Shown here: one piece after another, positions 7,557-64,000 of the stretch | Position numbering within the stretch: the stretch's first letter is position 1 | How the letters are laid out: every line of letters begins with the position of its first letter | NCBI GenBank assembly: GCA_964016885.1 | Contig: OZ024740.1 | Coordinates: 327,856,001 to 327,920,000, forward strand | Length of the DNA stretch: 64,000 bases | DNA from: Eledone cirrhosa | Taxonomy: Eukaryota | Direction of reading: 5' to 3' | Translations under genes and position numbers: made by a program | Notes under the pieces: model-generated | The model's database searches: none | Told to the model about the DNA's origin: nothing | The model's input: only the letters and a program-made list of their open reading frames with translations

Positions 7557-7610
<54 letters not shown>

Positions 7611-7990
7611 GCATCAGACGGTGGATTGGCAGTATTGGTACAGAGTTGGACACCATGCTTTCAGCATAGAGTTACGTCCCTATACGGACTGAGTTCAAAT
7701 CCCGCCGAGGTTAACTTTGCCTTTCATCCTTACGGGGTCAATAAAATAAAGTACCAGTAATGTACTGGGTTATTGCTGGCCTTGTGCCAAAAGTAGAAAC
7801 AATTATTAGCATCGGACAACTTGCTCTGTGGCATATAGTTACACCCCTTTATGGTCTGAGTTCAAATCTACCTGAGGTTAGCTTAGCTTTTCATCTTTAC
7901 AAGGTCAGTAAAATATAATAGCAGTAATTCACTAGGGTTGATTTAATCGAATTTTCACTTCTCAAAATTGTTGGCCTTGTGCTTAAATCA
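7020..7990 (+). mobile_element. Head-to-tail cluster of tRNA-derived SINEs (Meta/MESC-like core)
   Basis: About five copies of TTCTGAGTTCAAATCC (B box) ... GCCTTTCATCCTTACGGGGTCGATAAAATAAAGTACCAG with (ATT)n tails. Similar clusters at ~12010-12970, 20440-20820, 31860-32130 and 44020-45490. Confidence 0.8.
7620..7802 (+). mobile_element. Young full-length SINE with TSD
   Basis: GGTGGATTGGCAG...AAAGTAGAAACAA flanked by TTATTAGCATCAGAC (7605-7619) and TTATTAGCATCGGAC (7803-7817). Confidence 0.85.
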
Positions 7991-25712: not shown

Positions 25713-26775
25713 CATCATCATTACTGTTTAACGTTCATGTTTCCAAGCTGGCATGGGTTAGACGAGTTATCCTATTGTGAGCAATGCCTGGTCAGGTGAC
25801 CATGTCTTGCTCACACAGAACTCTTTTACCATTTTGTTTGCGGGGGCATGGCTGAGGCACTGCTCAGACTGGGGTGTAGTGTCAGTCTCTCCCCTCTTTT
25901 TTTCTTTCTTTGTTAGATACTTTTTTCTTTTTTGTTCCCTTGTTCCCTTGTTTTTATATAAACAGCTTTGTCAAATAAGTAGATAACACTATGAAAAAAC
26001 AACAAAAATAAAACATGAAATTCTATATGACAGATCTACTTATTTTTCAGGGAAAGGAAGTAAAGCATTTGTACTTCATACTGAAACAATTAGGTATGCT
26101 CCTGTTGTTAATCAACCTAGACCCCCCCCCCCCCCCGTCTTCTCAAACCACTTCCTACCACAGTAGAATATAAAGGATGTCATAAGTGTGAATATAAAAC
26201 AGGTTGTATTAAGTGTTGATCAAGACTGACTTAAAGCTAAACAAGAGTTAATAGATCTATGAATGTGACTAAGCATGAGTAAATATTTACATTTAGTCAT
26301 CGGGCTATTTCTTACTTTCATTTCCTGTGTAAATATCCACTTGTCTTTATAACTGTACCAGTAAATAACTGAAATTGTGTTGATATTTATCTCCCTGTGT
26401 GGTTAGTTGTCTATTTGGCTACCCATCTGTTTGTCATTTACTTGAATGCCTATCTAGATCAATACTCTTGTCCTTGTTTTTAGCATCCGATTCTTAAAGC
26501 TGGCATGGTTTCGGCAAGTTTACTGTATAACATATTGCCACTGTTTTTCATCTTTTAGTATCTCATTCTTGGATCTAAAATTATCACATTTTCACACATC
26601 TTACTTGGTCTTACTCTAGTGATGTCAACAAATTGGACTTTTCCATCAAAGACTTTGTCATATCTTTATATTTCATGTCCATAAAAACTGATGCCCAGCT
26701 ATTCCCTGAGCTTACTTAAGTTCTTCTTTCTTGTAGATTAGCATTACACAAGATAACTATTATTATAAGTGTCGG

Positions 26776-26863
26776 TGGATTGGCAGTATCGGTAGAATGT
26801 CAGACACCATGCTTTGCAGAATAGAGTTATGGCCCTTTACGTTCTGAGTTCAAATCCCGCCGA
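26776..26863 (+). mobile_element. SINE 5' tRNA head, truncated at the Helitron junction
   Basis: TGGATTGGCAGTATCGGTAG...TTCTGAGTTCAAATCCCGCCGA, then an abrupt switch to Helitron coding sequence. Confidence 0.85.
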
Positions 26864-27614
26864 AGAATTTTAGGAACAACATAAGAAATTATAATTCTGC
26901 CTTTGCATTTGCTTCTTTTGGTGCCAATATCAAACCTCCACCGGGACGTGGCCCTTATTGCTTCCAGTTACAAGGTCAAATATATCATTATGCCAGCAAC
27001 TTGCATCCAAACGAAAATGAACAGAGAAGATATGGTTAGCTCTACATCATTGAAACAAATGAAGCTATCCATACCCGAGCAAATGCTAATGAAAATGCCA
27101 ATTGCTTATTATCGGTGTTTGAACAAATAATGGTTTCAATGAATAATAATCCTTATGTAGCAGCATACAATAATATGAGAACTGTTGAAATGCAAGAACA
27201 ACAGCGAGCTGCAATAGAAAATATCCCTTCTAGAAAAGTAACCATGAAATTCATAGCAGGCCATGATGCAAGAAGATACAATAATCCAACGAACAATGAG
27301 GTTGTAGCAATTTTTGTTGGTGAAGATGGAGCACCGCCACTACATCGTGATATTGTTGCATATCCTATAGGACAACATAAAGAGAGAGAATATCGTACAT
27401 TTCTTGCCACTTAGACCCCATGGTATATCCTCTTCTCTTTCCAAATGGCGATCAACGATAGCATATTAACATGACGCACGTACAACATCACCAAACAAGA
27501 GTTCGTAACAAAGTGACAATGCAGGAATTCTACGCATTTCGCTTGGCCATAAGAGGCGGTTTCAGTGTAATACATCGAGCGGGAATTATTTCATCAATAC
27601 ATTGTTGATGCATA

Positions 27615-27996
27615 TATAGGGAAGATACTGGGTTGTATGAATGTAACAAGGCAATTTAGCGTAGATACTGGCGGTGTATGAATGTAACAAGGAGACATGG
27701 TTTGTGTGTATAATATTTAATTAACAATCATGGATATATATAGAACAGTATAGTTGACATGTCAAAGTAATAGATGATAGAATGAAGCAAAGTTAGTAGT
27801 TACCGTTTTGATTGCCAGGCAAACGCGAGACGCCTGGCGAAGGCCAGGCGCCGGAAGGGCAAATGAGAGGCAGAGAACTTAAAGTTGTTAGTTTTATAGG
27901 GTTCTGACCGGAAGTTAGAGAAATGGTTCTACTTCCCGTCTAGATGTTGTTAATCTATTGGGGTTGTGAGTCACAACAAGGGAAGCCACTGCTACA
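27615..27996 (-). mobile_element. Solo LTR (Gypsy-like) inserted in the Helitron
   Basis: Interrupts DAY|VKVE. 4-bp TSD CATA (27611-14, 27997-28000). Minus strand begins TGTAGCAG and carries TATAAAA; the other end reads TATA, probably a mutated TG/CA terminus. Confidence 0.75.
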
Positions 27997-29688
27997 CATA
28001 TGTTAAAGTAGAGGGATGTTGCTTGAATTTCATTGAAAATAACCAAGCACAGTTAAGAGTAGCAATGTACTCTGGCCTCATATTGTCATATGCTTATCAT
28101 GTTGCATGAAGAAGATAAAATTAGAACAAAAGAACAAATTGATAACATTGTCTCTGCTGAGATTCCGCCCATGGAAGAACCGGAGTTGAGGGAGTTGGTT
28201 CGAACACTGATGATACATGAACCTTGCGGAGTATCAAATCCGAATTCTGTCTGTATGGTCGACGCACAATGTCAGAAGAAATTCCCTAAGGAATATCAGG
28301 AAGATACCATCAACAATGTTTCAGGATATCCGGCATACAGAGGGAGAAACAATGGAGGAGACACAGTACAAGTAGGAACTCATCAAGTGGACAATAGATT
28401 TGTTGTTCCATATAATAAGTATCTGTTGAAAACTTATCATGCACACATTAACGTTGAAGTGAAAAGTGTGAAATATCTTTTCAAGTATGTCTATAAAGAA
28501 CATGATTGCGCAATGATGGAAGTGAGGAATGATATTACAAATAACAACAAACAAATCAATGGAAATGAATACAATGAAATAAAACAATATATTTTGTGCA
28601 GGTACGTGTCTCCACCTGAAGCATTTTGGCGATTATCGGAGTTCAAAATGCATGGGCAGTCCCACACAGTATACCGTTTGTCTCTGCATTTACCTGATGA
28701 ACAACGAGTGTACTACAGAGGAGAGCAACGACAATCAGCTGCATGAGCACAAGAGCGTGACACACATTTGACAGCTTGGTTCAAGCTAAACCAATCTGAC
28801 GAGAATGCTAGAAATCTTCTGTACTGTGATATTCCTCAACAATATGTGTTTCAGAAAAAGAGTACCAAATGGACTTGGCAAGTACACTTCCATAATATTG
28901 TAACCAGAATGTACTCAGCAAGTCCACGCAACGCAGAAAAATTTCATTTGAGAATACTACTCCTGCATGTTCCTGGCGCAACTTCTTTCAATGATTTAAG
29001 AACTGTTGAAGGTGAAGAATTTGAAACTTTCAAGGAGGCGTGATTGAGACTTCTTGATGATGATAATGAACTACAAGATACTTTGACAGAGGTAACAGCA
29101 TATCAAATGCCTCGACACATTCTAAACATATTTGCTATGATTTGCCTCTTCAGTCAACCCATCAATGCTTTACAACTGTGGAATGAAAACAAACAGTTCA
29201 TGATTGAGGATCTTTTGCAGACAAATGACAACACAACAGCTGAAAATATTGCTCTTCAGTTGATGAATGCCATATTTAGAGAAAATGACATGCATTGTAG
29301 CATGTTTGGCCTTCCTGATCCAGTCGGAGACCCCCTTCAAAAGAACCTTATGCGGAAAACCCAATCATAGATCCAAATTTATTGAACAATGTAAAAGAGA
29401 AGCATTTAATTGCGTGATTGATGCTACATTAACAGTTAACAGAGAAGAAAAAAATAATAGACTGTTCTATTTGGATGCGCCAGGAGGATCAGGAAAAACA
29501 TTTTGTTCAATATGATTTTCGATCACCTTACTGCTAACAATATAACAGTAAGTACATCTGCCTGGACTGGCATTGCTGCAACACTCTTGAAAGATGGTAA
29601 AACTCTTCACAGTATATTCAAGCTTCCAGTTCCTTTGAGTGAAACAAGTGTGTGCAATGTTCCTCCAAATTCTGATCAAGGAAACATT

Positions 29689-30261
29689 TGTAGTGACCTA
29701 CATTCCGCGGGCTCACATACATTCTCTGTGCGCGATTTGGCTCAGTTCAGCCAATCAGCGCCAGTAGAAGAGGATGTATCCCTACGCGCCCTGAGGAAGA
29801 AATTCCCCGCGAAGATTTGAAGAATCTCTCTCTTGTACCGGAAACTTCAAGCCAGCAACACGCATAATGTAACGGTGAGATTTGCACCCTAGCCTCGCCG
29901 GCTTAACGGCACATTCCCTTTTGTAACTTCTTTTTATCTGTAACTTCAACCATATAAATAAACAAACATTTCATCTCTAATTACTGCTGTTGAAATCATT
30001 ATTATGTTACTCGTGTCTCAATGACATCTATAATCCATGCTGCTGGAATTGGCGACCTGACGAAAGGAATATTGTAAATAGATGGTAAATAGATCGAGGG
30101 ACCTTCCCTCACGTCTATGTCAACAAGATAATCCAACGAGGATACTATCACTTACCACACTGGCAACTAACGACCTTCAATCATCTACCCTGTTAAAGTA
30201 ACGACCACTGATTCTACCACCCTGCTAAAGTGGCGACTACTCTATAACCAATACTGCTAAA
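29689..30261 (+). mobile_element. Solo LTR (Gypsy-like) inserted in the Helitron
   Basis: Interrupts DQGNI|LRRVKVFIID. 4-bp TSD CATT (29685-88, 30262-65). Termini TGTAG...CTAAA (degenerate CTACA). Internal AATAAA at ~29956. Confidence 0.75.
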
Positions 30262-31301
30262 CATTCTTAGGAGAGTAAAAGTCTTCATTATTGACAAAGC
30301 TTCAATGATACCAGCTTATGCTTTGCATGCAATAGATAAATGTTTAAGAGATATTATGAATAGTGATAGTATATTTGGTGGAAAAATTATCATACTAGGA
30401 GGGGATTTTAGACAAGTTCTTCCAGTTGTTCCCAGAGCTCCCCCTGCAGCTGTACTTGATGTCTGCCTCAAACGCTCCTCTCAGTGGGATCATTTTCATC
30501 AAATGAAACTCACAGAAAACATGAGAACAAATGAACAAAATTTTTCAAGGTGGCTACTACAACTTGGAAGTGGATTTCTATGAAGCTCTCTTGATAATGT
30601 CGCAGAAGATACTATTGATATTCCTGAGGCATGCATATGCAACAATTCTTTGGAATCTGATATCTTTGATAATTGCACAGCAGAAGAAATGAAAGCCAGA
30701 GTGATCTTATCCCCCAAAATTTCAGACTGCTTAGCAGTAAATGAAGAAATTCTAAGAAGATTGCCCACTGAAAATAAAACATATCTAAACACCGACTCAG
30801 TAACTTGTGATAATGAAGAAGGTCAGAATTATCCCATGGAGTTTATAAACTCTTTTACACCTTCTGGAATGCCTCCCCATCGACTGAACCTAAAAGTTGG
30901 AGCAATTATTATGCTGCTTAGAAACCTCTCTATAACACAAGGGCTATGCAACGGAACTCGCCTGGAAGTACTTCAGCTCCACGAGCATAGCATCGAAGCG
31001 TCAATTATAAGTGGATCTCACTCACAGACGAGATTACTGATTCCAAGAATCAAACTCTATCCAAGCGATGCAAACATTCCATTTGTTCTGCATAGGACCC
31101 AGTTTCCAGTTCGTCTGTCCTATTCTATGACAATCAATAAAGCACAGGGGCAAACATTCAACAGAGTTGGCATACACTTGCCACAGCCATGCTTCACTCA
31201 TGGCCAGTTATACGTAGCATTTTCAAGAGCAAGGACGATGAACAGTGTGAGGGTTAAAGTGATACCTCAAATCGATCCATGGCCGCAGAAGGGGAATCAC
31301 C

Positions 31302-31603
31302 GGCACTACAACGCTATTAGCTGTCAGTCGTGAAAGCAGGCGAAGGTGACGTCATTCGTCATCGTTTATTTCCGTATTACTACTACCACGCGTAAGTGGA
31401 GTTTTCACGCGCTTTTTATTTTTTTTATTAAAGCATATCGATGTAAGTGGAGTTACTTACATGAAAATATAGGAAAATTAGAAAACAAATTTAAGTTAAT
31501 TAGAAAAAAAAAACTCCACTTACGCGTGGTAGTAATACGGAAATAAACGATGTTTTGCTTTCATCGGCTGCTTTCGACTGACAGATAATAGCGTTGTAGT
31601 GCC
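31302..31603. mobile_element. MITE with 8-bp TSD and GG termini (Merlin-type)
   Basis: TSD GAATCACC (31294-31301, 31604-31611). Long imperfect TIRs GGCACTACAACGCTATTA.../...TAATAGCGTTGTAGTGCC. Confidence 0.85.
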
Positions 31604-32410
31604 GAATCACCTTTACTAGAAATATTGTATATAGGGAAGTGCTTTGAAGGATGTTTTTTATGTGTACTTTTATGAAATTAATTTTAAATAAACTTACATT
31701 ATTATACATAAAATAAAGGAAAATATAATTCTTTATTCACCAAAATACTGCAAATCAAACAACTTTGATTAACTGATAAATAAATATTCAGTGAACAATA
31801 TTTAAATTTCAAAAATTATGCGTGAATTTTTTCACGGTCCAGCTAGTTATTATAAGTGTCGGACAACATGCTTTGCAGCACACAGTTACAGCCCTTTATG
31901 TTCTGAGTTCAACCTCTGCTATGGTTAGCTTTACCTTTCATCCTTACGGAGTCGATAAAATAAAATACCAGTAATACACTGGGGTCAATTTAATCGACTT
32001 TCCCCTTCCCCTAATTGTTGGCCTTGTGCCTAAATGCTCGATAAAATAAGTGCCAGTAACGCACTGGGGTCAATTTAATCGACTTTATCCTTCCCAAAAT
32101 TGTTGGCTATGTGCCTAAATCAGAAACTATTATGTAATAAATTTTCTTTCACCTATATTTTCAGCACTAAAAAAAAAGAGTAGAAAAGGGGATAGGGGTA
32201 ATAAAAGAAAATTGATATGGTAGACCCTCACTCAATCACCTGCCACAAGGGACGCTGGGCTACTTATAATATTCAATAGGATTATTACATTTAATTTTAA
32301 AGTAGCACAATTAAAAAAATATATACCATGCAGTATAATCTGCTATCTGCATTTGTTATTTATTTATTTAATCATTGTCAAACATAAACTGCTTAGCTAA
32401 AACGTATGCA

Positions 32411-53048: not shown

Positions 53049-64000
<10,952 letters not shown>

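What the first reader, a model, noticed from the sequence alone, without database searches (positions are those of the whole stretch)
26760..31862. SINE head fused to a Helitron body, enclosed by a 16-bp retroposon-type TSD
Seen: TTATTATAAGTGTCGG occurs at 26760-26775 and again at 31847-31862, starting on the base right after the Helitron terminal CTAG. Between the copies lie the tRNA-derived head of the local SINE, cut just after the B box at 26863, and a 5'-truncated Helitron. Other young SINEs here have TSDs of the same TTAT-initiated type (7605, 20615, 45295). Known: Helitrons make no TSD and insert at A|T, whereas LINE-driven insertions make TSDs and can form template-switch chimeras such as U6-L1. 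Inference A: a LINE reverse transcriptase copied a Helitron template (RNA or ssDNA) from its exact 3' end, then switched to SINE RNA, so a DNA transposon was retroposed. Inference B (more mundane and still plausible): the Helitron landed at the A|T between the SINE 3' end and its TSD, and a later deletion removed the SINE tail and Helitron head. Pol III read-through is unlikely because TTTT follows the junction at once.
Basis: partly seen in the sequence, partly recalled or inferred. Interest (0 to 1): 0.72.

Follow-up and report, generated by a model that had tools for sequence, protein, structure and literature searches.

The report
Helitron borrowing a SINE's target duplication
A rolling-circle DNA transposon (Helitron) sits fused to half of a short retroposon (SINE) inside a 16-base duplicated target site, most likely because it landed right at the SINE's end, as several intact copies in this genome did, and about 1 kb was likely deleted afterwards; this is an ordinary nested insertion that only looks like a retro-copied DNA transposon.

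Summary
The anatomy is real. A 16-nt repeat found only 4 times in the 3-Gb assembly brackets a SINE head joined to a Helitron lacking its first ~911 nt, and CTAG touches the right copy.

The family comparison favours model B. Of 101 copies with both ends, 6 start exactly at a SINE 3' end (one ambiguous); chance is 0.12% per A|T site. L191 is the intact precursor: repeat, whole SINE, whole Helitron, CTAG, repeat, though that repeat is low-complexity. 5'-cut copies are common; none of 18 others has a TSD or a SINE head. The window copy also carries a second, 353-nt deletion. It has no tail, and three AATAAA signals precede CTAG. The fusion was found only once.

Model A (LINE template switch, ~6%) is not excluded: no other allele could be seen.

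Verdict: ordinary nesting plus deletion. The by-product is that this Helitron family shares the SINE's target and so fakes TSDs.

The parts
26760..26775 (+). Left copy of the 16-nt target site duplication, most likely made by the SINE insertion. Its last 3 nt (CGG) also fit the SINE head.
   Evidence: Exact repeat; 4 copies genome-wide
26776..26865 (+). SINE head with A box (26781-26792) and B box (26848-26857), cut after CCGAAG; about 93-95 nt of SINE body and tail missing
   Evidence: BLAST to local SINEs; variant count; box names are from recalled Pol III consensus
26866..31846 (+). Helitron lacking its first ~911 nt. It resumes inside the Rep-helicase coding region, the gene is broken, and the 3' end is intact.
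   Evidence: Colinear with up to seven other long copies at 85-98%; PIF1 and Pif1_2B; Helitron_like_N in the full copy L063
27616..27996 (.). Nested ~381-nt high-copy insertion, apparent 5-nt duplication CATAT (limits approximate)
28081..28082 (+). Junction of a 353-nt internal deletion that removes the EFQKRGLPH Rep motif; imprecise join near a shared CAT
29689..30258 (.). Nested 570-nt high-copy insertion, apparent 7-nt duplication AAACATT
31302..31603 (.). Nested 302-nt fold-back element with terminal inverted repeats and an 8-nt duplication GAATCACC (hAT-like; label recalled)
31687..31784 (+). Three AATAAA signals at 31687, 31712 and 31779, between the helicase stop and the element end
31821..31846 (+). 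Helitron subterminal hairpin (31821-31836) and terminal CTAG (31843-31846)
   Evidence: DNA fold z = -2.9; same end in 125 other copies
31847..31862 (+). Right copy of the target site duplication, abutting CTAG
31855..32127 (+). Older 5'-cut SINE with a duplicated tail (period 85); its first bases lie inside the duplicated target

Best explanation
The 16-nt duplication most likely belongs to the SINE, the Helitron likely landed later at the A|T between the SINE's last base and the right copy of that duplication, and a deletion of about 1 kb likely then removed the SINE tail and the Helitron head. Steps: (1) a SINE retroposed onto the 5' junction of an older SINE and duplicated 16 nt (repeat shown; mechanism from established knowledge of LINE-driven insertion). 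(2) A full-length Helitron integrated at ...AGAAACAA|TTAT... without a duplication of its own, so CTAG abuts the repeat (shown for other copies, inferred here). (3) About 95 nt of SINE and about 911 nt of Helitron were lost by end joining near the shared word CGAAG (missing lengths shown, mechanism inferred). Whether the loss came during or after integration is not known. The product is a dead, single-copy fusion.
For: Landing site: 5 of 82 distinct Helitron 5' ends sit exactly at a SINE 3' end, and 8 of 82 within 12 nt. Chance is 0.12% per A|T site, 0.10 expected, P = 7e-8. In the enlarged set, 6 of 101 two-ended copies are at the SINE end (L274 ambiguous), 3 lie 3-12 nt into the tail and 1 lies inside the SINE end. 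Intact precursors: L191 shows a 12-nt repeat, whole SINE, whole Helitron, CTAG and the repeat again; L098 (11 nt) and L133 (10 nt) are similar. Shared target: SINE ends are followed by TTAT in 72 of 84 cases, and the window's flank ranks 40 of 71 among the family's own 3' flanks. Deletions: 22 of 125 3' ends have no 5' end in the DNA fetched. For 21 loci examined (18 distinct 5'-cut copies) the longest flank repeat within 320 nt before the break was at most 7 nt, against 16 here, and none had a sense SINE head. The window copy has its own second deletion. My rough product of these rates (19 cut copies x 6% x an assumed 10-40% of breaks falling inside the SINE) gives 0.1-0.4 such loci expected, so one is unremarkable.
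Against: No allele with the whole SINE or the undeleted Helitron was seen. The repeats around the intact precursors are (TTA)n-rich and low-complexity, so they are weaker TSDs than the one here; L050 has none. The junction is not a clean microhomology join: the 5 nt GATCT that should follow CGAAG are missing, and the local likeness is reached by 3-4% of random window pairs. Divergence cannot order the two insertions: Helitron 79 of 3611 sites (2.2%); SINE head 1 of 90 against its 25 nearest copies and 6 of 90 against all 187.
Confidence: 0.88

Rival explanations
1. Model A: a LINE reverse transcriptase primed on a Helitron read-through RNA (or single-stranded DNA), copied about 4 kb, switched to the middle of a SINE RNA and closed the insertion with a 16-nt TSD. 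A donor flank starting TTAT could have paired with the nicked target and given the exact CTAG|TSD boundary.
For: The order TSD, small-RNA head, 5'-cut long element, TSD is that of known chimeras. Internal switching is described for U5 and U3 (PMC4476161, passages). Priming without a tail is described (PMC5322556, abstract only). Many family copies have TTAT-like 3' flanks. Unchecked earlier notes report tRNA, U6 and U1 fusions to SINEs in this genome. The ages of the two parts are compatible.
Against: There is no poly(A), (TTA)n or SINE/LINE tail after CTAG. Three AATAAA signals lie 68-160 nt before the end, so a processed mRNA would be expected to stop short of CTAG (inference). None of 18 other 5'-cut copies has a TSD. 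No second fusion appeared among 40 scored of 2420 candidates; the four hits fetched among those reaching furthest across the junction were plain SINEs. In the earlier notes the SINE is the 3', priming partner. PMC4476161 describes L2 and RTE LINEs as needing their own 3' end. The intact precursor of model B exists.
Confidence: 0.06
2. The SINE-Helitron junction is an assembly error that dropped about 1 kb; the real locus is whole SINE plus whole Helitron inside the TSD.
For: No contig bridging 26865|26866 was listed in three runs of one sample, and depth just right of the junction equals that of one non-bridging contig.
Against: The tool states that contigs drop variants and that a hole proves nothing; both sides of the junction are high-copy repeats. 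Contigs end exactly at this copy's private insertion boundary 29688, which hints that this copy is in the sample. Real 5'-cut copies are common. This rival would still make the TSD the SINE's.
Confidence: 0.04
3. The two 16-mers are not a TSD but a chance likeness between (TTA)n plus a SINE head on the left and (TTA)n plus a 5'-cut SINE on the right.
For: Both copies lie at SINE 5' junctions and partly resemble SINE sequence.
Against: The 16-mer is exact and occurs only 4 times in the assembly. By my reading the left copy differs from the usual SINE head at three places. The same pattern with a TSD is seen at 7605.
Confidence: 0.02

Closest known systems
Canonical TC...CTAG Helitrons (Helraiser, PMC4778049, passages; bat Helitrons, PMC4224331, passages)
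   Same: TC and CTAG ends, subterminal hairpin, Rep plus Pif1 helicase, insertion at A|T, no TSD, and a preference for AT-rich DNA that is strongest on the 3' side.
   Different: This family's preferred flank (TWWWTATWAWT-like) overlaps the local SINE's TSD start, so about 6% of copies sit exactly at a SINE end. This copy has lost its 5' end.
Template-switch or ligation chimeras: U6/L1, U5/L1, U6/L2, U6/Mon-1 (PMC4476161, passages) and Alu/L1 (bioRxiv 10.1101/2025.02.02.635956, passages)
   Same: A small-RNA-derived head joined to a 5'-cut long element inside one TSD.
   Different: There the 3' partner is a LINE, a SINE or a poly(A) mRNA with a priming tail, and the Alu is mostly full length. 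Here the 3' partner is a DNA transposon with no tail and the SINE is cut in half. The word Helitron does not occur in the bioRxiv text.
Tailless retropseudogenes (PMC5322556, abstract and outline only)
   Same: TSD-flanked copies without an oligo(A) tail show that a tail is not always needed.
   Different: Described for therian L1 and mostly small RNAs; whether this genome's LINEs can do it was not tested.
Nested transposon insertion followed by deletion (general knowledge, recalled)
   Same: All parts and steps seen here.
   Different: Only that the nesting is at the exact TSD boundary, which mimics a chimera.

Membership tests
Canonical Helitron (TC...CTAG type) | 3' CTAG preceded by a short hairpin | tested here: met
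Canonical Helitron (TC...CTAG type) | 5' TC end | tested here: inconclusive
   Absent in this copy; present in 101 family copies, a few with a changed base
Canonical Helitron (TC...CTAG type) | Rep (Helitron_like_N) and Pif1 helicase coding | tested here: met
   PIF1 in the window copy; Helitron_like_N 9.7e-54 in full copy L063; part of Rep is deleted in the window copy
Canonical Helitron (TC...CTAG type) | Insertion at A|T without TSD | tested here: met
   For the family: 3' flank starts with T in 69 of 71; 5' flank mostly ends in A. The 5' side cannot be read in this copy.
Canonical Helitron (TC...CTAG type) | Clade placement by Rep-helicase tree (Helitron1 versus Helentron) | not tested
   No tree built
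LINE-made chimeric retrocopy | One TSD around both parts | tested here: met
   model B gives the same picture (L191)
LINE-made chimeric retrocopy | 3' partner ends in poly(A) or a LINE/SINE tail | tested here: not met
   CTAG abuts the TSD; AATAAA signals upstream are not followed by a tail
LINE-made chimeric retrocopy | 5' partner joined at its RNA 3' end (usual; internal joins known for U5 and U3) | tested here: not met
   SINE cut at about base 96-98 of 191; PMC4476161 passages
LINE-made chimeric retrocopy | Both parts arrive at once (empty allele versus fused allele only) | not testable with these tools
   One informative sample, contigs only
LINE-made chimeric retrocopy | Recurrence of TSD-flanked 5'-cut copies of the template | tested here: not met
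   0 of 18 distinct 5'-cut copies
LINE-made chimeric retrocopy | Loss of introns from the template | tested here: inconclusive
   The one long gap (353 nt) is coding and is not GT..AG; I saw no intron that could have been lost but made no full gene model
tRNA-derived SINE | A and B boxes, tail, TSD, high copy number | tested here: met
   box motifs recalled
tRNA-derived SINE | Demonstrable tRNA homology | tested here: inconclusive
   ARAGORN found none; Rfam none of note

The most novel reading that the evidence does not exclude
A LINE reverse transcriptase copied a Helitron read-through RNA or single strand from its exact CTAG end, primed by the donor's TTAT flank, and then jumped into a SINE RNA: a rolling-circle DNA transposon moved by retrotransposition.
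Probability: 0.06. Interest if true: 0.75.

Novelty: new member of a known kind. Interest (0 to 1): 0.17.

Why it matters
As a locus it matters little: it is a dead nested insertion. It does carry a practical warning. This Helitron family and the local SINE share a TTAT-rich target, so Helitrons land at SINE ends about 50 times more often than A|T sites predict, and a later deletion then produces a convincing fake 'retroposed Helitron'. TSD-based calls of chimeric insertions need the family's intact copies as a control. If model A were true it would be a DNA transposon moved by a LINE, which my six paper searches did not turn up.

Tried and rejected
Allele test: the run search gave 3 holders, all one sample, plus 3 RAD-seq runs added by species label. 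Laying X1-X4 and X1-X3 plus X5 showed the left flank running on into the SINE head (to 26800-26802, no substitutions, one 4-nt gap). No empty, SINE-only or bridging record was listed. The joints 26863 to about 31925 come from other SINE copies. Inconclusive.

Second allele in the assembly: the left flank is single-copy.

Targeted search for SINE end plus Helitron start (35 matches; 21 of the 30 loci read, the other 9 being neighbours in one array; the last 5 matches read): it added one more exact case (L239), which is left out of the unbiased counts.

SINE inserted in front of an existing Helitron: rejected for the exact cases I read in full (L050, L051, L133, L137, L191), since no copy of the Helitron's first bases precedes the SINE.

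Pol III read-through SINE: TTTT follows the junction and the fusion was found once.

Dating by divergence: uninformative.

Correction: my notebook entry 2 calls the 353-nt deletion a CAT microhomology join; on re-reading it is imprecise (an extra AT is kept).

Papers: six searches, judged by listing and start of abstract, showed no LINE-retroposed Helitron and no Helitron preference for SINE ends. The library lacks most subscription papers. PMC12001565 and PMC13282606 (passages) added nothing decisive. No supplements were read; target-site tables there could bear on the novelty of the target overlap.
Full report
1. Observation. The 16-nt repeat is exact at 26760-26775 and 31847-31862, cannot be extended, and its right copy starts on the base after CTAG. 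It occurs 4 times in the 3.0-Gb assembly, twice here. The right copy continues as an older 5'-cut SINE, 31855-32035, so the target was the 5' junction of an older SINE; the SINE at 7605 shows the same pattern. The species is not given.

2. The Helitron. The body 26866-31846 is colinear with up to seven other long copies at 85-98% identity and differs from their majority at 79 of 3611 sites. It encodes PIF1 pieces; the full copy L063 gives Helitron_like_N at 9.7e-54. The family begins TCTATATATTAATAC and ends in a hairpin plus CTAG. The window copy starts at base 912 of the full copy, inside coding sequence. It holds three nested insertions and a separate 353-nt deletion through the Rep motif.

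3. The junction. The window reads CCCGCCGAAG then AATTTTAGG. The Helitron reads CACGAAGGATCT then AATTTTAGG in five of six other copies, with two substitutions in the sixth. The SINE has GAAG at this place in 12 of 202 copies. Both parents therefore share CGAAG near the break, but GATCT is missing, and this degree of likeness is reached by 3-4% of random window pairs. The join fits imprecise end joining and does not separate the models. No other place spans the junction among 40 scored of 2420 candidates; four of the hits that reached furthest across it are plain SINEs.

4. Where this family lands. I collected copies by their own ends (fetched). Of 82 distinct 5' ends, 5 lie exactly at a SINE 3' end and 8 within 12 nt. 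In 536 kb of background, which includes the Helitron loci themselves, there are 130 SINE ends for 52,543 AT dinucleotides per strand, or 0.12% per site; 0.10 exact cases were expected, P = 7e-8. The enlarged uniform count gave 125 distinct 3' ends: 101 with a 5' end, 22 without, 2 too near an edge. Of the 101, six sit at the SINE end (L050/L089, L133, L137, L191, L275, and L274 with a worn 5' end), three lie 3-12 nt into the tail and one inside the SINE end. Loci from the targeted search were left out of these counts. L191 reads 12-nt repeat, whole SINE, whole Helitron, CTAG, same repeat; L098 and L133 are similar with 11 and 10 nt. These repeats are (TTA)n-rich, which weakens them as TSDs, and L050 has none. 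The likely cause is a shared target: SINE ends are followed by TTAT in 72 of 84 cases, and the window's flank is an average site for this family, rank 40 of 71, while 5.6% of background sites score as well. Helraiser likewise prefers AT-rich DNA on its 3' side (PMC4778049, passages).

5. How often the 5' end is lost. I examined 21 loci with an intact 3' end and no clear 5' end; two proved to have worn 5' ends and two are one duplicated locus, leaving 18 distinct 5'-cut copies. The longest repeat of the 3' flank within 320 nt before the break was at most 7 nt, and none had a sense SINE head there; the window gave 16 nt. Three of the 22 were not in this set (L116, L185, L189). Caveats: some 5' ends may lie beyond large insertions, and break positions in the low-complexity interior are approximate. 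With 19 cut copies, 6% at SINE ends and an assumed 10-40% of breaks inside the SINE, 0.1-0.4 such loci are expected (my estimate); one is seen.

6. Model A at its strongest. Internal switching occurs for U5 and U3 (PMC4476161, passages). Tailless priming exists (PMC5322556, abstract). A read-through RNA ending in a TTAT flank could give the exact boundary (inference). Unchecked notes report tRNA, U6 and U1 fusions to SINEs in this genome. Against it: there is no tail; the helicase stop lies 177-194 nt before the end in two full copies and three AATAAA signals lie 68-160 nt before it; no other cut copy has a TSD; in the noted chimeras the SINE is the priming 3' partner; and L2 and RTE LINEs are described as needing their own 3' end. 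I did not identify the SINE's partner LINE.

7. Alleles. Only one sample holds the flank. Its contigs run from the left flank into the SINE head, but no listed record bridges the junction. The tool warns that contigs show presence, not absence. This neither supports nor refutes a model and leaves a small chance of assembly error. Divergence cannot order the events.

8. Comparison and verdict. The family meets the tested features of canonical TC...CTAG Helitrons (no tree was built). The locus fails three tested features of LINE-made chimeras: tail, join at the RNA end, and recurrence. Six paper searches, judged by listing, showed neither a retroposed Helitron nor this target overlap; supplements were not read. 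Model B 0.88, model A 0.06, assembly error 0.04, chance repeat 0.02. The locus is an ordinary nested insertion plus deletion; interest 0.17.

Noticed in passing
L032, L035, L123, L135, L165 (3' flanks); L037, L104, L123, L129 (5' flanks): The Helitron also lands in SINE tails in the opposite orientation (AAT runs), and 9 of 54 3' ends are followed within 45 nt by a sense SINE.
   Followed up: partly
L119, L118, G000:C1:410290136-410306486, L181: Tandem arrays of the Helitron's first ~66 nt (53-nt unit in L181), several kb long; those in L118, L119 and L181 end in a Helitron 3' end.
   Followed up: no
   Followed up: no
window 27616-27996 and the copy in L067/L068: Two unrelated insertions (381 and ~815 nt) at the same Helitron base, both with an apparent CATAT duplication.
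   Followed up: partly
L044, L045, L065/L066, L252: Head-to-tail Helitrons: TC directly follows a CTAG, in two cases of a different Helitron end.
   Followed up: no
L051: Helitron at an exact SINE end whose 3' terminus is replaced by a SINE head across a shared GAATT/GGATT-like word: the mirror image of the window's junction.
   Followed up: partly
L217, L218: Sequence after two SINE ends (a TSD in L218) looks like the Helitron's own 5' end, a further sign of overlapping target motifs.
   Followed up: no
window 7560-7990: SINE inserted on the 5' junction of an older 5'-cut SINE with a 15-nt TSD, the same geometry as the finding's target.
   Followed up: partly
window 31302-31603: 302-nt fold-back element with terminal inverted repeats and an 8-nt duplication, high copy by read depth.
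   Followed up: no
window 53049-64000: At least 11 kb of TA-rich microsatellite running off the window end.
   Followed up: no
L253 and L254; L188, L189 and L257: Duplicated loci carrying the same Helitron insertion (inverted pair 76 kb apart; three copies on one contig).
   Followed up: no
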